DNA of 64,000 nt from Terriglobales bacterium (GCA_025934735.1 JAICWP010000009.1:71640-135639); one strand, 5' to 3'; positions 13,979-56,572 are shown, counted from the first letter of the stretch. Notes: a model not told the origin generated them from the letters alone. Program-made: numbers and translations.

Positions 13979-15292
13979 CTATTTGTACAAGTCAGCGGCG
14001 GTGTCGTGCAGGTAGGCGTGCGCCATTTGCAGGGCACGATCTTCGCTGATCTCGTGTTCTGAAACCATCTCCGCCAGCGCTCCGGCCAGCGATTCTCTTA
14101 CCGTCTGGACGCCCAGCCAGTAGCTCTCTTCCGCCCCCATCACGTCGTTATAAGGGAAGCAATCGGAGCCGTAGGTGATCTTATCGGGGAACAGTTCCAG
14201 CCACTCTTTGAGCGAGCGCTTGAACTGGGCGGGATACATGTCTACTTCCATCAGGGATGAATCAAGGTAAACGTTCTTCATCGCGGCCAGCCAGATGGCG
14301 ACGCGCTCCAGCGGATATCCACCGTGGATCATCACCCAGGTCACGTTGCTGTAGCGGGGATCGCGCAGCACGTTTTCCAGGTTCATGATGTTGCCGTGAG
14401 TGATGTCGAAGTAGTCGCCAATGCCCACGGCAGTGTGGATGTGCACGGGCAGATGGAGGCGGCCGCCTTCGCTTACCAGGTAACGGAAAATGTAGTCCTG
14501 GAAGGTGGTGTATTCCTGTATCGTGGGCACGCCGCCGGCGTGGTACTTGCGATAGAGTGCCTCGGCCTGAGCTTTGGATGGATCGCCGAAATGCAGCGAG
14601 CGGAAGTAGGCCGCCTCAAACTTCATGGCGATGCCGCCTTTGCGCTGGTTATCTTGCAAGGTGCGCGAGATAAACCTCAGGTACTCATCGAAGCTCGAGG
14701 GCAGGGCACTGACGTTTTCCTGCTGCATCCAGCGGTGCAGCATCTTTTCCTGCAGCGGGATGTAAACCTGCTCGTCAGAATTGCGCGCGGTCATTTCGCG
14801 ATTGTTGAACGGCCACATGAAAGAATCGGCGAAGAAGACCCACTTGAAGCGGTGGGGATCGAGGTAATCCATCATGGCGCGGTTGGCAATGGAAGTTTCA
14901 ATGCCCAGCTTATCGAGAATGCTGTCCCAATAGCCGGCATCGCCGAGTTGCTTGCGCAACTCCGCTTTTTTGGCCACCAGCCATTTGGCATGCTCCGGGC
15001 TCATGTCATCGTAGGGATAGCCCCAGAGCGCCTTCATAGCGGCAATCATCTCGGGATTGTCGAGGCGCTCGCGCAATGGCGAGCTGTAGTTGGGAGGCGC
15101 CGCCATGGCGTCCACATCAGGGTCGTCGGCGAAGCCTGGGTGGGCGTGATGGTCAAAGAGGGGAATCTTCTGAATTTCGCCCAGCAGGCGCTGATAGGTA
15201 GCTTGCAGATCCGGGCTGGGATAAGGCTGAGCCTGGGCCAGGGCGAGAGTGGGGAGCAGGAGAATCAGAGCCAATGTGCGAAGCATAATCAT
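13979..15292 (-). CDS. Secreted amidohydrolase-family (metal-dependent hydrolase) protein
   Basis: Start set at ATG 15292 (MIMLRTLALILLLPTLALAQA, a signal peptide). Contains HHAHPG and later HTAVG / MIHGGYP metal-ligand-like blocks. Confidence 0.75.
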   Translation of the reverse strand: MIMLRTLALILLLPTLALAQAQPYPSPDLQATYQRLLGEIQKIPLFDHHAHPGFADDPDVDAMAAPPNYSSPLRERLDNPEMIAAMKALWGYPYDDMSPEHAKWLVAKKAELRKQLGDAGYWDSILDKLGIETSIANRAMMDYLDPHRFKWVFFADSFMWPFNNREMTARNSDEQVYIPLQEKMLHRWMQQENVSALPSSFDEYLRFISRTLQDNQRKGGIAMKFEAAYFRSLHFGDPSKAQAEALYRKYHAGGVPTIQEYTTFQDYIFRYLVSEGGRLHLPVHIHTAVGIGDYFDITHGNIMNLENVLRDPRYSNVTWVMIHGGYPLERVAIWLAAMKNVYLDSSLMEVDMYPAQFKRSLKEWLELFPDKITYGSDCFPYNDVMGAEESYWLGVQTVRESLAGALAEMVSEHEISEDRALQMAHAYLHDTAADLYK

Positions 15293-15314
15293 TTGGCGAT
15301 TGATGATTCCTTTG

Positions 15315-15381
15315 CCACAGAGGCACGGATACACGGAGGAATCGTTTCCATAATCTTCTCAGTGGCTCTGTGTTTCTGTGG
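15315..15381. repeat. Imperfect inverted repeat of the CACAGAG/CACGGAG REP-like family
   Basis: CCACAGAGGCACGGATACACGGAGG (15315-15339) faces CAGTGGCTCTGTGTTTCTGTGG (15360-15381). It lies between the aminotransferase stop and the amidohydrolase start. Confidence 0.6.
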
Positions 15382-15393
15382 CGAATCCCTTAG

Positions 15394-16581
15394 CTAGCGG
15401 CGCGCAATAGCTGCCGACCAGGCCGCGGAAACCTTTTGGATGCGCTCGGTCGCCTCTTTCAGAGTCGCGTTGGAAGAGGCAAAGCTGAAGCGCACAAAGT
15501 CACGTCCAGCATCGCCAAAAGCGGCGCCAGAAATGGCGGCCACGCCCGCTTCTTCCAGCATGATGCGGCACAGTTCCTCGGCCGTTACGCCTGTGTCGGC
15601 AATATTCACCCAGGCATAAAATGCGCCCTCCGGCGGCAAGCAGCGGAAACCGGGAATGCGGTTCAGGTCGGCGATGAATTGCTGGTGGCGGCGCTCAAAT
15701 TCGCGCACCATGCGCGGGGTGGCGCCCTGGGCGTCGCGCAGGGCCTCAATGGCCGCCCACTGCGTAAATTCGGCCACACAGGTGTAGCTGTTCACGGCTA
15801 GCAGGTCGAGGGCGGTCACAAAGCGCTCAGGTGCCACCGTGTATCCCAGGCGCCAGCCGGTCATGGCAAAGCTCTTGGAGAAGCCGTCAATGATGAAGGT
15901 GCGCTCCGCCATGCCGGGGTAGCTGAGCATGGATTGGTAGGCGCCTCCAAAAATGATGCGGGCGTAAATTTCGTCCGAGAGCACGAGCAGGTCGTGCTTG
16001 ACCGCCAGTTCAGCCAGGGCGCGCTGGACTTCGTCCGTATAAACGGTCCCGGTGGGATTGTTCGGCGAACAGGTGATCAGAACCTTCGTGCGCGAGGTAA
16101 TCTTGCGCGCCACTTCTTCAGGATCGGGCTGGAGGCGATTGCGCTCGGCCAACTCATAAGGGACCGCCACGCCGCCGAAGCCGCGCGTAATGGAGGGATA
16201 TCCGGGAAAGCCAGGATCGGGATAGAGCACCTCGTCGCCGGGCTCAAGCAGCGCCATCAGCGCAAGAAACAGGGCAATCTTGCAGCCAGGAGCGAGGACG
16301 ATGTTCCCGGGTGGAACGCGCAGGTTGCGGGTGCGCGCCATGTAGGCGGCGATTTCCTGGCGCAACTCGGGCACACCCTGCACCGGGCAGTAACGGTCCT
16401 TGCCGGCATCGAGCGCATCTTTGGCCGCTTGCAGCACCTCGGCAGCAGGGTGGAAATCCGGCTCGCCCAGTTCCAGGTGAATGATAGAGCGTCCTTCGGC
16501 CTCCAGTTCCTTGGCGCGGGCGTAAACCGAGAGCGCGCCTTCGCCGCTCATCACCGCCAGCCGGGAAGCGAGTTGCCGCAC
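15394..16581 (-). CDS. Pyridoxal-phosphate-dependent aminotransferase (class I, aspartate aminotransferase-like)
   Basis: 395 aa. Blocks LGEPDF, SPNNPTG, and FSKSFAMTGWRLGY with the PLP-lysine motif. GTG start lies 2 nt after the upstream stop. Confidence 0.9.
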   Translation of the reverse strand: MRQLASRLAVMSGEGALSVYARAKELEAEGRSIIHLELGEPDFHPAAEVLQAAKDALDAGKDRYCPVQGVPELRQEIAAYMARTRNLRVPPGNIVLAPGCKIALFLALMALLEPGDEVLYPDPGFPGYPSITRGFGGVAVPYELAERNRLQPDPEEVARKITSRTKVLITCSPNNPTGTVYTDEVQRALAELAVKHDLLVLSDEIYARIIFGGAYQSMLSYPGMAERTFIIDGFSKSFAMTGWRLGYTVAPERFVTALDLLAVNSYTCVAEFTQWAAIEALRDAQGATPRMVREFERRHQQFIADLNRIPGFRCLPPEGAFYAWVNIADTGVTAEELCRIMLEEAGVAAISGAAFGDAGRDFVRFSFASSNATLKEATERIQKVSAAWSAAIARR

Positions 16582-16583
16582 GG

Positions 16584-17150
16584 TTATGCCTTCCTCGCGA
16601 CTGCCGCCGGTACCGGGGTGGTAGGAATGCGCAACGCATCCACGAAACGGGGAAAGAATACGAAGGCCGCGGCCGTGGCCGTTAATTCGATGATTTCCGG
16701 GTCGCTGAAACTGCGCTTCAGCTCCGCGTAGAACTCGTCGTCGAGTTCATAAGGCGAGCGGTAAAGCCGGTCAGCCGCGCGAAATCCCAGCTTTTCCTTT
16801 TCGTTATACGGACCTTTCTCGAAGTCCTGCAAGCCGGCCACTTGCGCCTCGCTGGCGCCCTTCTGCTTCGCCGAAGCAGTGTGGGCCGAGGTTCAATAAT
16901 CGCAATTCTGCAGAATGGCGACCCGGGTGGCAACCAACTCCTTGTAGCTGCCGGAGAGGGCGCCATCACCGAGCAGCGGCTTGAGAAACCCCGCAATCCC
17001 CATGGCCAGGGCGGGCGTGTGAGCAACCGTCTTGAACATATTGGGCACCGCGCCCCTCTGTTCCAGAAGGAGATCATAAAGCTTGCCGATATCCTCCGGA
17101 ACCTGGTTGCGCTCCAGCAGGGGAATACGCGGATGATCGTGGCCCTTCAT
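16584..17150 (-). CDS. AhpD-like / carboxymuconolactone decarboxylase-family protein with in-frame TGA (candidate selenocysteine, CxxU)
   Basis: Track ORFs 16893..17441 (from ATG 17150: MKGHDHPRIPLL...VATRVAILQNCDY) and 16584..16841 are in the same frame, separated only by TGA at 16893-16895. The read-through gives ...AILQNCDY-U-TSAHTASAKQKGASEAQVAGLQDFEKGPY..., which is the family CxxCxxxH motif with TGA at the second Cys. Confidence 0.7.
16858..16895 (-). promoter_or_regulatory. Candidate bacterial SECIS hairpin immediately 3' of the in-frame UGA
   Basis: mRNA reads UGA ACCUCGG CCC ACA CUGCUU CGGCG AAGCAG AA GGG. There is a 6-bp upper stem (plus-strand 16863-16868 / 16874-16879), a 5-nt apical loop with GG, and a 3-bp lower stem (16858-16860 / 16883-16885). 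The loop begins about 22 nt after the U of UGA. Confidence 0.5.
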
Positions 17151-20100
17151 CAGAATGCGTACCTCAACGAGAACTGTATCAGACGCGGTGTGCCGGTGGT
17201 ATTGGTGATCTGGCCGAAGTTGGCGGGGCTCTCCACGTCGGTGAAGGCCGGGCTGGCAAAGTTGGGATGATTGAAAAGGTTGAAGAAGTCGGCAGTGAAG
17301 CGCAGAGACTGCCGCTCGGTGAGGTGGAACATCTTGATGGCCGAGAAGTCGAAATTCTGCTGAAAGGGCCCGCGATAAATGTTGCGGCCGAGGTTGCCGA
17401 AATCGGTGCCGCAGAAGTTGGGGTTGTTCACGGGATCGCACTGCGCTGGATACAGCAGAGGCGCGGTGGTGAAGGCGGCGGGATTGAGGTAGCCGTTAAT
17501 GCGGTTAAAGATGTCACCGCTGCTCAAACCCGAGGACAAGGCGGCGCCGGGAGCCAGGCTGGCGCCCAGCAGCGGGGTGCTGCCCGCGCCCAAGAAGCCG
17601 GTGCCGGCGGCCGAATCAATGATGGAGAAGGGCGTGCCCGACTGGAACACAGTCACGCCGCTCACTTCCCAGCCCTTGAGCAGAGCGCCCTTGGCGCCGG
17701 TGGCGTTCTGGAAGACAGGCAGATCGTACACATAGCTGATGGCCAGGCGGTGAGGACGGTCAAAGTCGGAGAGGCCGCGCGAGGCGTTGATGTTGCTCTG
17801 GTCGTTGTAGGCGGTGTTGAACGCGGTGTTTCCGGTGGAGGTAGCGTCGGTGGAGCGGGAGAAGGTGTAAGCGGCCAGCAGGTAGCCGCGTCCCCAACGC
17901 CGGGTCAGATTGACCTGCAGAGCGTTGTAGTGGGAGTAGGCGTCATTAGCGAAGATCTGGTAACCGGAGTAGCCATTCAACCCGGGAGTGGGGGTGCGGG
18001 CAATGGCATTGTCGAGGGTGTTGGTTGTGATGGCGTGGGTTACGCCGCCGGTGTCGGTCACGAAGAATGGACTGCTGGGGCTTACCCGGACGGACTGAAT
18101 GCCATCGCGCGTTTCACGGAGGTGAATGGAGTGCGTGCCCACGTAGCCGACTTCCAGCACGAAGTTGTGGCCCAAGTCGCGCTGCAACGTCAGGTTCCAC
18201 TGCTGAGTGCTGGGCACAACAAAGCGCCGCGGGACTTCGAGGCCGAAGATGCCGACGGAGGGAACGCCGTTGCAGGAGGCATAGTCGGCGGCATGATCCG
18301 TGCCATTTGGAAATCCGGAGATCTTGGACAAGCAGGGAATGTAAGCCGGGCTCAGTTCGCCTGCCGGGGGGAGAGCGTTTGGGTTAGTCGCCAGCGTGCC
18401 AGAGAAGAAATTGGCCAGAGCGCCGGGAGCGGGCGCGCCGCCAAAGGCGATGGGTAACAGGGGCGCCTGGAAACTGAGCTGGTCAATGTTGCCCACGTCC
18501 TCCCGCACGTAGTAGATGCCGTAGCCGCCGCGCAGCACGGTCTTGTGCCGGCCCATGATGTCCCAGGCGAATCCGATGCGCGGGCCCAGCCCGGTAGAAA
18601 TCTGGTTGTTAAAGGTGGATGCCGAAGCGTTTCCGGAGAAGCCGGGCACATTGAGCTTGTTGACGCACCTGGGATACACGAACGGGTATTGGCCGCTCTG
18701 TGTTAGCGAGGATTGCAGGTTGCCGATATGGCAATCCCCGTCGGTGAAAGCGCCCATCAGTTCGGTGCGGAGGCCGAGGTTGAGGGTCAGGTCAGGACGC
18801 GCCTTCCAGTCGTCCTGGGCAAAGAAGCCGAAGTTGTTCTGGCGGTAGGCGTGGTTGAAAACGCCGCCGCCGCCGAAGCTGAAGTTGGGCTCGCCCAGCA
18901 GGAACTCCTGGAAGTCAGTCAGCCCGCCGTTGTTGACGAAAAACAACTGGCCATTAAACGTCTGCGGAAACTGCTTGTCCAGGTTGACGCGCGTCGCCTC
19001 GCCACCGAAGCGCCAGTTGTGGTTGCCATGGGTCCAGCTCAGAGTTTCTACGAAATTGTAGTTGTTCTGGTCCTGGAATTGGTCAGCCTGGGGGGTGGGA
19101 CCAAACTGGAAGCCGGAACTCAGCAGCGTGAACTTGTAAATGCTCTTGGTCAGGTTGTTAGTGGGGCGGTTGATGCCCACGTCGCTGACCGTGACCGGCG
19201 GCACGTTGATGGCGCTGTTGTTAATGTGTACCCAGCCAAAACGCAAGTCATTGACCATGGTGGGAGAGAAGAGATGGGTCTCGGCCACGGACATAAGGCG
19301 GTCGTCCACCGGAAGGTCGAAGGGGAAATTGAGGTCGGAGCCGCTGATGCTGCCGCCCAGGGAAGCCTGCAGGCCGCCCGCGCCGAAGGGCACCAGTTGC
19401 TCGGAGTTGGAGAAGAAGAAGCGGTAGGCGACCTTGTCCTTGCCGCCGCGGAACTCGCGGTCCCAGTTGGTGGTGAACTGGTCGTCGGTGAAGCGTCCGG
19501 GTTTGCTGAAGGCAAACGGACCGGTGTTCAGGTTGCCGGCGCTGTCCAACCCGGCTTGACCCGGCACACTGGGGAAAAGGAAGCCGCCGGGCGTATTGCC
19601 GAACTGATTACTTTTGAAATTGAGCACTTTGAGGGCGACAGGGTCAATCTGCACGCCGGTCTGGCCGGGGAAAAAGGTGTTGAGCAGCGACTGTGCGGAG
19701 CGGTCGGCGGGCATAACCGGCAGCAGAGTGCTGATGAACGTGCCGCCAGAAAGGCCACTGCGCTGGCGCGTGCCCTGATAATTAACGAAGAAGAAGCCAA
19801 ATTTGCCGTCTTTGCCGATGGGCCCGCCAAGGCTGCCGCCGAAGATGTTTTGCTTGATCACCGGGCGAGGCTGTCCGCTGCGCTTGAGGAAGAACTCGTT
19901 GGCATTGAGCACGTCATTGCGGAAAAACTCATAAACATCGCCGTGAAACTCGCGGGTGCCCGATTTCAGGATGGCATTAACGTTGCCGCCGCCATTGCGG
20001 CCCTGGCTGGCGTCGTAAAGCGAAGTCTGCACCTTGAATTCCTGCACCACGTCCGGGTTGGGCAAGGGCGTGTTGGTGAGTTCCGCCACGTTGTAGTCAG

Positions 20101-20704
20101 TGGCGGTGATGCCCTCAACCAGGTAATTGTTGTTGTCCTCGCGCTGGCCGTTGACGATGATGCGCACGTCACCGCGGCCCAGCTGCGCCGAGGCGTTGAG
20201 CTGGCTGGAGGCGCCGGCGGAGAGGCTCAACAGCTGCTGGAAGTTTTGTGTGGCCAGGGGCAGGGTGCGGATGGTGTTGGATTCGATGGCCTCGCCGGTG
20301 GTGGCTGTGGTGGTCTCCACGGTTTGCACTTCGGCCTGAACCTGGACCTCCTGCTTGACGGTCTGCGGCACCAGTTTGGCGGTCATGCGCGTGGTTTCGG
20401 TGACGCGCACGTCCACGGAGTTGACCGTGCCCTGGGCAAACCCGGGCGCGCTCACGGTGACGTCATAGCTTGCGACGGGCAGCAGCAGCGCGGTAAACGA
20501 GCCGCTGGCATCGGTTTTAAGCGTGCGCGCCACCTGGCCGGTGGCGTGGTTCACGATCTTCACCGTGGCGCCGGGCACGACCGCACCGCTGGGATCCAGC
20601 ACCTGCCCGGTCATGGCGCCGGTGGCGCCGCCCTGGGCCCATACCACGGCCGCCAACAAGAGCGGTAACAGTGCCAAACCAAGAATTCTGAGAACCGTCC
20701 GCAT
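17150..20704 (-). CDS. Giant TonB-dependent-receptor-like outer-membrane protein with N-terminal carboxypeptidase-regulatory-like domain
   Basis: 1184 aa. Signal peptide MRTVLRILGLALLPLLLAAVVWAQ, a CarboxypepD_reg block (GQVLDPSGAVVPGATVKIVNHATGQVARTLKTDASGSFTALLLPVASYDVTVSAPGF), beta-barrel repeats and terminal ...LRYAF. Confidence 0.85.
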   Translation of the reverse strand: MRTVLRILGLALLPLLLAAVVWAQGGATGAMTGQVLDPSGAVVPGATVKIVNHATGQVARTLKTDASGSFTALLLPVASYDVTVSAPGFAQGTVNSVDVRVTETTRMTAKLVPQTVKQEVQVQAEVQTVETTTATTGEAIESNTIRTLPLATQNFQQLLSLSAGASSQLNASAQLGRGDVRIIVNGQREDNNNYLVEGITATDYNVAELTNTPLPNPDVVQEFKVQTSLYDASQGRNGGGNVNAILKSGTREFHGDVYEFFRNDVLNANEFFLKRSGQPRPVIKQNIFGGSLGGPIGKDGKFGFFFVNYQGTRQRSGLSGGTFISTLLPVMPADRSAQSLLNTFFPGQTGVQIDPVALKVLNFKSNQFGNTPGGFLFPSVPGQAGLDSAGNLNTGPFAFSKPGRFTDDQFTTNWDREFRGGKDKVAYRFFFSNSEQLVPFGAGGLQASLGGSISGSDLNFPFDLPVDDRLMSVAETHLFSPTMVNDLRFGWVHINNSAINVPPVTVSDVGINRPTNNLTKSIYKFTLLSSGFQFGPTPQADQFQDQNNYNFVETLSWTHGNHNWRFGGEATRVNLDKQFPQTFNGQLFFVNNGGLTDFQEFLLGEPNFSFGGGGVFNHAYRQNNFGFFAQDDWKARPDLTLNLGLRTELMGAFTDGDCHIGNLQSSLTQSGQYPFVYPRCVNKLNVPGFSGNASASTFNNQISTGLGPRIGFAWDIMGRHKTVLRGGYGIYYVREDVGNIDQLSFQAPLLPIAFGGAPAPGALANFFSGTLATNPNALPPAGELSPAYIPCLSKISGFPNGTDHAADYASCNGVPSVGIFGLEVPRRFVVPSTQQWNLTLQRDLGHNFVLEVGYVGTHSIHLRETRDGIQSVRVSPSSPFFVTDTGGVTHAITTNTLDNAIARTPTPGLNGYSGYQIFANDAYSHYNALQVNLTRRWGRGYLLAAYTFSRSTDATSTGNTAFNTAYNDQSNINASRGLSDFDRPHRLAISYVYDLPVFQNATGAKGALLKGWEVSGVTVFQSGTPFSIIDSAAGTGFLGAGSTPLLGASLAPGAALSSGLSSGDIFNRINGYLNPAAFTTAPLLYPAQCDPVNNPNFCGTDFGNLGRNIYRGPFQQNFDFSAIKMFHLTERQSLRFTADFFNLFNHPNFASPAFTDVESPANFGQITNTTGTPRLIQFSLRYAF

Positions 20705-54864: not shown

Positions 54865-55108
54865 AGGAAGCGCTCCTTTCAGTGAGGTTATGTATTACGG
54901 GTTCGACTCCGCCCACCGGGAGGGCGAAATCAGTTTCGCCAGATGTCGCGACATCAAATCTCGGATACCGAAAGCCTAAACCTGGAGAGCCCGAAGGAAA
55001 GACAAAGCGTCACAAAAATTTGCCTGCACGTGCCGATTTGGGAGGGACCTGACGCGCTAGCAAAACTCTATTGCGTGTTATCACCCCAACACAAGAAACC
55101 GCATTCGC

Positions 55109-56572
55109 TCAGGACGGTTCCGGGGAAGGCACCGCGGAAGAGTCGGGCTCGGCTTGTTTGCTGAACGGCAAGTTTACCCAAATGCGCGTACCTTCGTGCT
55201 GCATGCTCTTCGCCTGGATGGTGCCGCCGTAAGCCTCCACGATGGCCTTCGCGATGGCGAGACCCAGGCCAAAGCCTCCTGTCTCCCGCGAGCGCGAGGG
55301 ATCGCCCCGGCGGAAACGTTCGAAGATGTAGGGCAGGTCCTGGGGAGCGATGCCGGTGCCCCAGTCCTGCACGCTGATGCAAGCGTTGTCGGCAGTGCGC
55401 TTCAGTTGCAAGCGTACGGTGGAACTTGGCGGGCTATGCTGGATGGCGTTTTCCAGCAGATTGACCCAGACCAGTTCCAGATCTTCAGGATCGGCGCGCA
55501 CGTCGCCCCCGCCATCGGCGGAGAACTGAACTTCTACTCCCCGAGTCGCGGCCAGGTTCTTGATGCGCGCTACCGCCATTTCGCAGGTGGAAGCGAGATC
55601 GGCTACCTCCAGCGTGCGCGGTTCGCCATCGGCCACCTGCTGTTCCGCCCGCGCCAGGCGCAGCATGCGGTTGAGCAGTTCCTCCAGGCGGTCCACGTCG
55701 CCCAGCAAGTCCAGGAGCCCGGCTCGGTATTCATGGGGCGAGCGCGGCTTCTGCAGCAGGGATTGAAAGGTGGATTTCAGGATGGCCACAGAGGTCTTGA
55801 GCTCATGGGCCGCATCCGCCAGGAATTCACGCTGCTGCTCGAAAGCCAGCTCCAGTTTGCCCAGCACGGTTTCAATGGCCTGCGCCAGAGGCGCCAGTTC
55901 CGGTGTCTCCAAAGCGGCTTTGGGTGGACGGAAATTCCAGTTCTTGACCGAAATGCCGGCCGCCTCGCCCGCCAGCCCGTGCAGCGGCCATAGCCCACGG
56001 CGCACCGCCCAGGCGGCCAGCAAGCCGGTTAGCACCAGCAACATCAGGCTGGCTCCGGCCACCATCATGCCCACCTCGTTGGCGCGGCGGGTTATGTCCA
56101 GCGTTGGCGCGGCGTAGAACACGTCCACGGTCACATCAGTGTCCAGGGTGTCGATTTCGGCATCACGGATGGAGACCTTGCGCAGAATCAAGCCGCGATA
56201 GGGCACTCCTTTGGAGGTGAAGTTCCAGTACTCGCCGCGCGACGGTTCGCCGCGCAGAAATGCCGTATCGAAATTTTTGGAGTGCGCTTCGAACGGCCGG
56301 ATCGCGCTCGTCACCTGGTAAATGTCGGGACGCGAAGCATCGAAAGGAGGGGGCGCCTCGTCATCGTCGATCAGCAACCCTGGCTTGCCACCCGGAGGAT
56401 AGTAAACCAGCGCGGCAATGGCGCGGGCCTTGCCCTGCAGGCTCATATCAAAAGCCGCCAGCAGCTGCCGCCGCGCAAAGGTGATGCCCACCAACACAAG
56501 GCCGATGGCCAGCAGGAGCTGAGCGCCAACCACCACGGCAGTGAGGCGGCCCGTTAATGAGAGGCGTTTCAT
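55109..56572 (-). CDS. Sensor histidine kinase (periplasmic sensor, HAMP, HisKA, HATPase_c)
   Basis: Two TM segments flank a periplasmic domain of about 150 aa. H-box FLADAAHELKTSVAIL, N-box LLENAIQHS, G-boxes DWGTGI and GGFGLGLAI. Confidence 0.9.
   Translation of the reverse strand: MKRLSLTGRLTAVVVGAQLLLAIGLVLVGITFARRQLLAAFDMSLQGKARAIAALVYYPPGGKPGLLIDDDEAPPPFDASRPDIYQVTSAIRPFEAHSKNFDTAFLRGEPSRGEYWNFTSKGVPYRGLILRKVSIRDAEIDTLDTDVTVDVFYAAPTLDITRRANEVGMMVAGASLMLLVLTGLLAAWAVRRGLWPLHGLAGEAAGISVKNWNFRPPKAALETPELAPLAQAIETVLGKLELAFEQQREFLADAAHELKTSVAILKSTFQSLLQKPRSPHEYRAGLLDLLGDVDRLEELLNRMLRLARAEQQVADGEPRTLEVADLASTCEMAVARIKNLAATRGVEVQFSADGGGDVRADPEDLELVWVNLLENAIQHSPPSSTVRLQLKRTADNACISVQDWGTGIAPQDLPYIFERFRRGDPSRSRETGGFGLGLAIAKAIVEAYGGTIQAKSMQHEGTRIWVNLPFSKQAEPDSSAVPSPEPS

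What the first reader, a model, noticed from the sequence alone, without database searches (positions are those of the whole stretch)
16858..16895. Stem-loop with a GG-containing apical loop about 22 nt downstream of the in-frame UGA (SECIS-like)
On the mRNA strand the sequence after the UGA is ACCUCGG-CCC-ACA-CUGCUU-CGGCG-AAGCAG-AA-GGG. This gives a 6-bp perfect upper stem, a 5-nt loop CGGCG and a 3-bp lower stem across a small internal loop. Bacterial SECIS elements are hairpins that start a few nt after the UGA. They have an apical loop bearing G residues within roughly 16-37 nt of the UGA, and this hairpin fits that geometry. It lies inside the coding sequence, as expected for bacteria.
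Basis: seen in the sequence. Interest (0 to 1): 0.6.

Follow-up and report, generated by a model that had tools for sequence, protein, structure and literature searches.

The report
SECIS hairpin in AhpD-like selenoprotein gene
The hairpin is a genuine bacterial selenocysteine-insertion signal inside a peroxidase-related (AhpD/CMD-family) gene of a soil acidobacterium; this is a clean but ordinary new example of a well-known mechanism.

Summary
Confirmed. Window 16584..17150 (-) encodes a 188-aa CMD/AhpD-fold protein. Its in-frame UGA (16895..16893) replaces the second Cys of the C-x-x-C-x-x-x-H redox motif, giving C83-D-Y-U86.

Thirteen nt downstream lies a 17-nt hairpin, CUGCUUC-GGC-GAAGCAG (16879..16863). 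It appears in the minimum-free-energy fold.
- The same helix in the same register, with an invariant GGC triloop, occurs in 40 of 41 UGA-bearing homologs. Six of its 7 pairs show compensatory changes.
- None of 53 Cys-, Ala- or Gly-bearing homologs has more than 4 of 7 pairs, even where the peptide is the same.
- Synonymous sites in the hairpin codons are the most constrained in the gene.

The genome has selA, selB (with its SECIS-binding winged-helix domains), selD and tRNA-Sec. SelD, an FdhA-like gene and six or seven other candidate selenoprotein genes in this genome carry the same design: a 6-8 bp stem and a G[G/U]N loop starting 17-22 nt after the UGA.

- The stem has 7 bp and a GGC triloop, not 6 bp and a 5-nt loop.
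- The 3-bp lower stem is not conserved.

AhpD-like CxxU selenoproteins have been known since 2005, so this is a new member of a known kind.

The parts
16584..17150 (-). Gene for a 188-aa CMD/AhpD-like selenoprotein. ATG at 17150..17148, TAA stop at 16586..16584, one in-frame UGA.
   Evidence: Translation with TGA=U is open end to end. Pfam CMD 59.5 bits against cut-off 23. TIGR00778 ahpD_dom 40.3 bits against 27.8. Full-length homologs align across the UGA. AlphaFold pLDDT 92.9, TM 0.85 to AhpD-core structures 2prr, 6k40 and 2pfx.
16893..16895 (-). In-frame UGA, the Sec codon (U86). It is the second position of the C83-D-Y-U86-T-S-A-H90 redox motif.
   Evidence: It aligns with the second Cys of CxxC in homologs and in PDB peroxidase-related proteins. 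The UGA is conserved in 15 close orthologs from different MAGs.
16902..16904 (-). TGC codon of Cys83, the likely partner of Sec86 in a selenylsulfide pair.
16880..16892 (-). 13-nt spacer between the UGA and the hairpin (ACCUCGGCCCACA).
   Evidence: The same 13-nt spacing occurs in all 40 in-register homologs and in this genome's selD. Synonymous sites vary freely here.
16873..16879 (-). 5' arm of the SECIS upper stem (CUGCUUC).
   Evidence: MFE folds. RNAalifold consensus and pair counts: 97.7% paired, 6 of 7 pairs with compensatory changes.
16870..16872 (-). Apical triloop GGC, the presumed SelB contact.
   Evidence: Invariant in all 31 sequences of alignment A3, which include the out-of-register L056, and in the 10 further orthologs. 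This genome's selD hairpin has the same loop.
16863..16869 (-). 3' arm of the SECIS upper stem (GAAGCAG).
16858..16860 (-). It may form in this sequence but is not conserved.
   Evidence: Present in the MFE. Across 31 homologs only 62% of cells pair and there is no compensatory change; the invariant bases are first and second codon positions of Ser, His and Gly codons.
17150..20704 (-). Upstream gene: a 1184-aa outer-membrane beta-barrel protein with a CarboxypepD_reg domain. Its UGA stop overlaps the selenoprotein ATG by one base (UGAUG). This shows that UGA is an ordinary stop in this genome.
   Evidence: Synteny is conserved in orthologs.
15394..16581 (-). Downstream gene: class I/II aminotransferase. 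It starts 2 nt after the selenoprotein stop, which suggests one operon.
   Evidence: Synteny is conserved.

Best explanation
The hairpin is a bacterial SECIS element. It recodes the in-frame UGA at 16895..16893 as selenocysteine in a CMD/AhpD-fold thiol/selenol oxidoreductase with active site C83-x-x-U86-x-x-x-H90.

Inferred mechanism:
- While the ribosome translates towards the UGA, the 17-nt hairpin (7 bp plus a GGC triloop, starting 13 nt after the UGA) is still folded at the mRNA entrance.
- The C-terminal winged-helix domain of this organism's SelB binds its apical G-G loop and delivers Sec-tRNA(Sec) (anticodon UCA) to the A site, competing with release factor 2.
- The ribosome then melts the hairpin and reads it as T-A-S-A-K-Q.

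Shown here: the UGA at a Cys position, the hairpin, its covariation and restriction to UGA-bearing genes, the RNA-level constraint on synonymous sites, the full Sec machinery, and the same hairpin design in other selenoprotein genes of the genome.

Inferred from established knowledge of the E. coli and Moorella systems: SelB binding to the loop, actual Sec insertion, and a peroxidase-related redox function.
For: 1. Gene and codon. The frame is open with TGA=U. The protein has a CMD domain and an ahpD core domain. U86 aligns with the second Cys of CxxC...H in homologs and in PDB proteins. The predicted fold is the AhpD core, TM 0.85.

2. Hairpin. It is in the MFE fold.

3. Comparative evidence.
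- 30 of 31 UGA-bearing homologs from the same taxonomic family have 7 of 7 in-register pairs and a GGC loop. The mean is 1.8 of 7 in 19 Cys homologs and 2.8 of 7 in 20 Ala/Gly homologs.
- Ten further UGA orthologs from named Terriglobales/Terriglobia MAGs are all 7 of 7. Fourteen further non-UGA homologs have at most 4 of 7.
- 97.7% of cells are paired, 6 of 7 pairs have double compensatory changes, 43 cells are compensated, and 0 of 500 shuffles reach the observed covariation score. Slid registers give 35-59% pairing.
- RNAalifold finds the same helix on its own.
- Homologs that encode the same peptide S-A-K-Q-K without a UGA lack the helix.

4. Synonymous constraint. Entropy of hairpin codons +5..+10 is 0.22 bits against 0.99 elsewhere, the lowest of 96 sliding windows.

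5. Machinery. selB at 351 bits, with SelB-wing_2 and SelB-wing_3 domains. selD with its own UGA. selA at 554 bits. A 98-nt tRNA-Sec with anticodon UCA.

6. Same architecture elsewhere in the genome.
- selD: N13, 7 bp, GGC.
- FdhA-like gene: N11, GGUGCCC-GGUCU-GGGCACC.
- CMD paralogs on contigs C9 and C19.
- A hairpin-guided scan also found deiodinase-like, two AhpC/TSA and rhodanese candidates with Sec at the expected active-site position.

7. All four constraints of the published bSECIS model are met (PMC13188914): 3-nt loop, 7-bp stem, G in loop positions 1 and 2, 20 nt between the UGA and the loop, and -8.7 kcal/mol for the bare hairpin.
Against: - There is no experimental evidence of Sec insertion or SelB binding for this gene or organism, which is an uncultured MAG lineage.
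- Single-sequence folding is only modestly better than shuffles (z = -2.1).
- The hairpin lacks the bulged U of the E. coli fdhF element.
- No Rfam family matches the region at E <= 10.
- One UGA-bearing homolog (L056) has a shifted hairpin, CUGCC-AGUU-GGCAG, instead of the in-register one.
- The covariation counts include related sequences, so the cells are not independent events. However, at least six distinct stem variants occur.
Confidence: 0.93

Rival explanations
1. The hairpin is a by-product of coding. The conserved peptide (T/S)-A-S-A-K-Q-K happens to be encoded by self-complementary codons, and the RNA has no function.
For: The loop GGC comes from xxG-GCx (Ser/Leu-Ala), and Ala is conserved in nearly all homologs. 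Folding z is only -2.1.
Against: Non-UGA homologs that encode the same S-A-K-Q-K (for example L021, L022, L028, L034, L037, L041) have 1-4 of 7 pairs. Synonymous sites in the hairpin are frozen only in the UGA clade. A second CMD clade with a different peptide (T-A/V-L-A-R-R) forms the same helix in the same register through compensatory changes.
Confidence: 0.02
2. The UGA is a true stop, from a pseudogene or a split gene, and the hairpin is unrelated, for example an intercistronic structure.
For: Standard ORF calling splits the gene into 16893..17441 and 16584..16841. UGA is used as a normal stop by the upstream gene.
Against: The UGA is conserved at the same codon in 41 genes from many genera, while the downstream frame stays open and conserved at 70-92% identity. 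It falls exactly on a catalytic Cys position. The genome has complete Sec machinery. No run of U follows the hairpin.
Confidence: 0.02
3. The hairpin is a selected RNA element tied to the UGA but acts otherwise than by binding SelB. For example, it could pause the ribosome or occlude release factor to allow generic read-through.
For: SelB binding was not tested. The element lacks the E. coli bulged U.
Against: The loop G-G is invariant. The spacing is fixed and nearly equals the E. coli minimal SECIS: 17 nt long, 13 nt from the UGA here against 11 nt in E. coli, with loop G at positions 24-25 here against G23 (PMC8659212). The same design is shared by unrelated selenoprotein genes including selD and the fdhA-like gene. 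SelB with its SECIS-binding wing domains is encoded.
Confidence: 0.03

Closest known systems
Bacterial SECIS element (bSECIS consensus model; archetype E. coli fdhF/fdnG, minimal 17-nt upper stem-loop)
   Same: It lies in the coding sequence just after the Sec-UGA. [quoted passage not shown] SelB with winged-helix domains is present.
   Different: There is no bulged U in the 5' arm. The loop is a GGC triloop rather than GGUC. The lower helix that embraces the UGA is not conserved. The sequence is unrelated, and no Rfam model matches.
AhpD-like / CMD-domain selenoproteins with a CxxU motif (Sargasso Sea 2005, GOS 2008; 'AhpD-like 1/2'; listed under TIGR01926 and NF041047 in the 2026 review)
   Same: CMD domain, AhpD-core all-helical fold, Sec at the second position of CxxC...H, and a predicted SECIS just downstream.
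   Different: It scores below the curated cut-offs of every specific NCBIfam (seleno)protein family: TIGR01926 60.5 against 81.8, NF053654 68.6 against 310, NF041238 42.6 against 175, NF041047 21.4 against 110. It belongs to a Terriglobia orthogroup in a fixed outer-membrane-protein / CMD / aminotransferase gene order. Most members of that orthogroup have SxxA instead of CxxC or CxxU.
SECIS of this genome's own selD (contig C5, UGA at 142464)
   Same: Identical geometry: UGA, 13-nt spacer, 7-bp stem, GGC triloop.
   Different: The stem sequence is different (GUCCGGC/GCUGGAC, one G-U pair) and the gene family is unrelated.

Membership tests
Bacterial SECIS (bSECIS consensus model, PMC13188914) | Hairpin inside the ORF immediately downstream of an in-frame UGA that aligns with Cys in homologs | tested here: met
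Bacterial SECIS (bSECIS consensus model, PMC13188914) | Apical loop of 3-9 nt and upper stem of 4-16 bp | tested here: met
   3-nt loop and 7-bp stem.
Bacterial SECIS (bSECIS consensus model, PMC13188914) | At least one G in the first two loop positions (G followed by G or U) | tested here: met
   Loop GGC, invariant in all 41 UGA-bearing homologs.
Bacterial SECIS (bSECIS consensus model, PMC13188914) | [quoted passage not shown] | tested here: met
   20 nt (13-nt spacer plus 7-nt arm).
Bacterial SECIS (bSECIS consensus model, PMC13188914) | MFE <= -7.5 kcal/mol | tested here: met
   -8.7 kcal/mol for the 23-nt core; -18.2 for UGA+45 nt.
Bacterial SECIS (bSECIS consensus model, PMC13188914) | Genome encodes SelA, SelB, SelD and tRNA-Sec | tested here: met
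Bacterial SECIS (bSECIS consensus model, PMC13188914) | Structure conserved by covariation and restricted to UGA-bearing homologs | tested here: met
Bacterial SECIS (bSECIS consensus model, PMC13188914) | Binds SelB and directs Sec insertion | not testable with these tools
   Needs a reporter assay, 75Se labelling, mass spectrometry or a gel shift.
E. coli fdhF-type SECIS (specific archetype) | Bulged U in the 5' arm and a G23-U24 loop | tested here: not met
   Perfect 7-bp stem without a bulge, loop GGC. Features as described in PMC8659212. It works like this archetype but is not a sequence-level member.
Rfam SECIS families | Covariance-model match | tested here: not met
   No SECIS family among matches at E <= 10 in 16500..17300.
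CMD / AhpD-core superfamily | Pfam PF02627 and TIGR00778 above their cut-offs | tested here: met
   59.5 against 23 bits, and 40.3 against 27.8 bits.
CMD / AhpD-core superfamily | All-helical AhpD-core fold with the CxxC...H motif at a helix N-terminus | tested here: met
   pLDDT 92.9. TM 0.84-0.86 to 2prr, 6k40 and 2pfx. Helix 84-96 starts at the motif.
TIGR01926 peroxidase-related enzyme (family assigned to 'AhpD-like' selenoproteins) | Score above the curated cut-off | tested here: not met
   60.5 bits against cut-off 81.8.
NCBIfam curated AhpD-type (seleno)protein families NF053654, NF041238, NF041047 | Score above the curated cut-off | tested here: not met
   68.6 against 310, 42.6 against 175, and 21.4 against 110.
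CMD / AhpD-core superfamily | Peroxidase or disulfide-reductase activity | not testable with these tools
   Needs an enzyme assay.

The most novel reading that the evidence does not exclude
Two readings go beyond 'one more SECIS', and the data do not exclude either.

(a) This Terriglobales lineage may use a compact, bulge-less SECIS class: a 6-8 bp perfect stem and a G[G/U]N loop (often a triloop) starting 17-22 nt after the UGA. All roughly ten candidate selenoprotein genes of the genome share it. That implies a SelB recognition mode simpler than the E. coli U17/G23/U24 code.

(b) The focal orthogroup sits in a fixed gene order (outer-membrane protein, CMD, aminotransferase). It alternates between a CxxU form and forms with no redox residues (SxxA, FxxG), with CxxC only in non-syntenic outgroups. 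The Sec/Cys pair may therefore be a dispensable add-on to a protein whose core role does not need it. This would be an unusual Sec-to-non-Cys evolutionary path.
Probability: 0.35. Interest if true: 0.45.

Novelty: new member of a known kind. Interest (0 to 1): 0.25.

Why it matters
The result corrects the annotation of this locus. Standard gene callers split or truncate the gene at the UGA, as they would about ten other genes in this genome. It also gives a well-controlled, covariation-backed SECIS consensus for Terriglobales: UGA, N10-16, a 6-8 bp stem, and a G[G/U]N loop. That consensus could be used to annotate selenoproteins in soil Acidobacteriota MAGs.

The work shows that this soil bacterium invests heavily in AhpD-like selenoproteins, with three CMD paralogs and a fourth weak candidate. 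It does not change how Sec decoding is understood.

Tried and rejected
- An Rfam scan of 16500..17300 at E <= 10 found only two chance hits (TLS-PK1 and sR10) and no SECIS model.
It is not conserved: 62% paired and no compensatory change.
- Longer lower helices in the single-sequence MFE were not pursued, because the two UGA clades have unrelated flanks.
- All NCBIfam selenoprotein families scored below their cut-offs.
- Several hits of the pattern scan were rejected as non-coding or without family support: C20:347844, C17:30981/31034 (a repeated hairpin upstream of leuS), C33:4350, C10, C9:88810, C16, C4 and C9:68166 (no Pfam hit).
- C8:134067, C14:6898, C26:9040 and C46:156766 passed the composition filter of the permissive scan but were not followed up and are not counted as candidates.
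- The plus-strand ORF 16842..17270 overlapping the site is treated as spurious, because the minus-strand frame carries the family match.
- A terminator reading was rejected because no run of U follows the hairpin.
- I did not run the large homology searches (search for homologous proteins, the search of protein representatives). The whole-genome searches already gave 94 homologs with their DNA.

Full report
**1. What is at the site.**
On the minus strand an ORF starts at ATG 17150 and ends at TAA 16586..16584. It is interrupted once, by TGA at 16895..16893. Read with TGA=U it gives a 188-aa protein with the motif N-C83-D-Y-U86-T-S-A-H90. The protein matches Pfam CMD (PF02627, 59.5 bits, cut-off 23) and the AhpD core domain TIGR00778 (40.3 against 27.8).

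In phmmer alignments to solved 'peroxidase-related' AhpD-core proteins (2pfx, 3c1l, 2prr, 2oyo) and the debrominase Bmp8 (6ohi), U86 falls on the second Cys of their C-x-x-C motif. An AlphaFold model built on 30 homologs is confident (pLDDT 92.9). It superposes on 2prr, 6k40 and 2pfx with TM 0.84-0.86, and the motif lies at the start of helix 84-96.

The upstream gene is an outer-membrane beta-barrel protein. It ends with a UGA that overlaps the ATG by one base (UGAUG), so UGA is a normal stop in this organism.

**2. The hairpin.**
After the UGA come 13 nt (ACCUCGGCCCACA, 16892..16880). Then follow CUGCUUC (16879..16873), GGC (16872..16870) and GAAGCAG (16869..16863). ViennaRNA places this 7-bp helix with its triloop in the MFE and centroid structures of 48-, 61- and 161-nt stretches. 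Thermodynamics alone is modest: z = -2.1, and 5 of 200 shuffles fold as well.

Genome-wide, only 10 of 129,930 TGA triplets are followed by N13 + 7 perfect pairs + a GGN triloop. Three of those ten lie in supported candidate selenoprotein genes: this gene, selD and a weakly supported CMD-like paralog.

**3. Comparative test.**
A six-frame search of 150 genomes of the same taxonomic family found homologs in 73.
- The four closest homologs (71-92% identity) all carry the UGA.
- The next tier (52-65% identity) has no stop.
- A more distant clade (33-43% identity) again mostly carries one UGA.

I fetched 70 of these genes and 30 more from named GTDB genomes. The named relatives are Terriglobales/Terriglobia MAGs, which places the window in Acidobacteriota.

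I counted pairs in the fixed register: columns 17-23 with 33-27, counting the U of UGA as 1. Of 41 distinct UGA-bearing genes, 40 have 7 of 7 standard pairs, and all 41 have a GGC triloop at columns 24-26. None of 53 distinct genes with Cys, Ala or Gly at that codon has more than 4 of 7, and the means are 1.8 and 2.8, which is chance level. This holds even for genes that encode the same S-A-K-Q-K peptide.

On the 31-sequence alignment A3:
- 97.7% of cells pair.
- 6 of 7 pairs show double compensatory changes (for example C:G/U:A in 16 and 14 sequences at pair 20:30, and C:G/G:C/U:G at pair 17:33).
- 0 of 500 shuffles reach the observed covariation score.
- Sliding the 3' arm by 1-3 columns drops pairing to 35-59%.
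- RNAalifold predicts exactly this helix without guidance.

Within the focal clade, L018 and L092 carry CUGUUUC/GAAACAG and L093 carries CUGCCUU/AAGGCAG. Among 15 close orthologs, the synonymous-codon entropy of the hairpin codons (+5..+10) is 0.22 bits against 0.99 elsewhere. That is the lowest of 96 six-codon windows, while the spacer codons vary freely.

The closing pair 23:27 covaries (U:A 25, C:G 5, G:C 1). Its invariant bases are first and second codon positions.

**4. Machinery and other selenoprotein genes of the same genome.**
The assembly is 4.94 Mb and 99.8% complete. It encodes the following:
- selB (351 bits; EF-Tu domains plus SelB-wing_2 and SelB-wing_3);
- selA (554 bits);
- selD, which itself carries an in-frame UGA in ...KAAGUASKL...;
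- a 98-nt tRNA-Sec with anticodon UCA, an 8-bp acceptor stem and a long extra arm.

Genes found by homology alone, without reference to any hairpin, show the same design:
- selD: UGA-N13-GUCCGGC-GGC-GCUGGAC;
- an FdhA-like molybdoenzyme (...NQARIUHSS...): N11-GGUGCCC-GGUCU-GGGCACC;
- a CMD paralog beside selB (CHYU): N12, 8 bp, loop GUC;
- a CMD paralog on C19 (CKYU): N10, 7 bp, loop GUU.

A hairpin-guided scan added further candidates, each with Sec at the expected active-site position:
- a deiodinase-like protein (SYTUPPF; Pfam T4_deiodinase 9e-30);
- two AhpC/TSA proteins (WUPxC);
- a rhodanese (CTU);
- a weak CMD-like protein (CSYU).

In this set the loop starts 17-22 nt after the UGA.

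**5. Mechanism.**
The element meets every constraint of the published bacterial SECIS model: loop 3-9 nt, stem 4-16 bp, G in loop position 1 or 2, 16-37 nt spacing, and MFE <= -7.5 kcal/mol (PMC13188914). It closely resembles the E. coli minimal SECIS, which is a 17-nt stem-loop 11 nt from the UGA with loop G23 U24 (PMC8659212). Here the stem-loop is 17 nt long, lies 13 nt from the UGA, and has loop G24 G25. It lacks the E. coli bulged U.

The most likely mechanism is the canonical one. SelB-GTP carrying Sec-tRNA(Sec) docks on the loop through its C-terminal winged helix when the UGA nears the A site. This step is inferred, not shown. The product is expected to be a selenol/thiol oxidoreductase of the AhpD type that forms a C83-U86 selenylsulfide. 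Its substrate is unknown.

**6. Context and evolution (side observations).**
The gene order outer-membrane protein, CMD, aminotransferase is conserved in nearly all homologs of 52-92% identity, whether they carry CxxU or not. Most syntenic orthologs have S-x-x-A, and some have F-x-x-G or C-x-x-G. They thus lack both redox residues, yet keep E71, Y85 and H90.

In a quick maximum-likelihood tree, the CxxU groups are interleaved with SxxA groups inside a supported clade (SH-aLRT 96). Its outgroups are non-syntenic CxxC proteins. The second CMD clade shows CxxC at the base and a derived CxxU group (SH-aLRT 99) with one reversal to Cys. Resolution is low, so I draw no firm direction of change from it.

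**7. Comparison with what is known, and verdict.**
AhpD-like and CMD-domain proteins with CxxU were described as selenoprotein families in the Sargasso Sea (2005) and GOS (2008) surveys, with predicted SECIS elements. They are catalogued in recent reviews and in BSepDB. This protein scores below the curated cut-offs of TIGR01926 and of the three NCBIfam AhpD-type (seleno)protein families. It is therefore an uncatalogued subfamily of a known kind.

Novelty is low. Its value lies in correct annotation and in a clean SECIS consensus for Terriglobales.

Noticed in passing
Own genome outside the window: C5:142464 (selD), C34:234268, C9:55224, C19:97844, C12:36035, C43 (- strand), C20 (- strand), C38:74751, C44 (- strand): The genome appears to encode about ten selenoproteins. 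They are SelD, an FdhA-like molybdoenzyme, a deiodinase-like protein, three CMD/AhpD-like proteins plus one weak CMD-like candidate, two AhpC/TSA proteins (one fused to a metallo-beta-lactamase domain, one to DsbD_N) and a rhodanese. All have a 6-8 bp hairpin with a G[G/U]N loop starting 17-22 nt after the UGA.
   Followed up: partly
Own genome C9:~54926-55520 (+), next to selB at C9:55598-57490 (-): A second CMD selenoprotein gene (motif NRCHYU) lies convergent to selB and less than 100 bp from its 3' end.
   Followed up: no
Loci L019-L030, L032-L037, L039, L094-L112 (orthologs of window 16584..17150): Most positional orthologs (same outer-membrane protein / CMD / aminotransferase order) have S-x-x-A, F-x-x-G or C-x-x-G instead of C-x-x-U or C-x-x-C. 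They have lost both redox residues but keep E71, Y85 and H90. The direction of change is unresolved.
   Followed up: partly
L056 (G056:C1:2217761-2218476) and L071: L056 is the one UGA-bearing homolog without the in-register helix. It has a shifted hairpin, CUGCC-AGUU-GGCAG, starting 11 nt after the UGA. In the tree it groups with L071, a Cys (CxxC) reversal.
   Followed up: no
L087 (JBLMXE010000376.1, labelled 'Chlamydiota bacterium MAG264'): This contig carries the CMD selenoprotein, aminotransferase and outer-membrane genes at 86-90% identity to the Terriglobales versions. It is probably a mis-binned acidobacterial contig.
   Followed up: no
Own genome C17:30982 and C17:31035 (+), upstream of a leucyl-tRNA synthetase gene: Two copies of the same 39-nt GC-rich hairpin-containing stretch (TGAGCTGCGCTCGCCTTGGACGGGGCGGAGCCCCGTCCC) lie 53 nt apart. 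It looks like a small tandem repeat in the leuS leader and is unrelated to Sec.
   Followed up: no
window 17148..17152 and 16579..16586 (-): Gene junctions are tight. The UGA stop of the outer-membrane gene overlaps the CMD ATG by one base (UGAUG). The aminotransferase GTG starts 2 nt after the CMD stop, and an Amidohydro_2 gene follows (13979..15334). This looks like one operon of unknown pathway.
   Followed up: partly
L110 and L111 (two contigs of MAG SMAG_U1107): Both contigs end inside the ortholog at about residue 82, just before the UGA and hairpin. The upstream outer-membrane genes differ (92% and 57% identity). This looks like an assembly break where two strain or paralog variants meet.
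   Followed up: no
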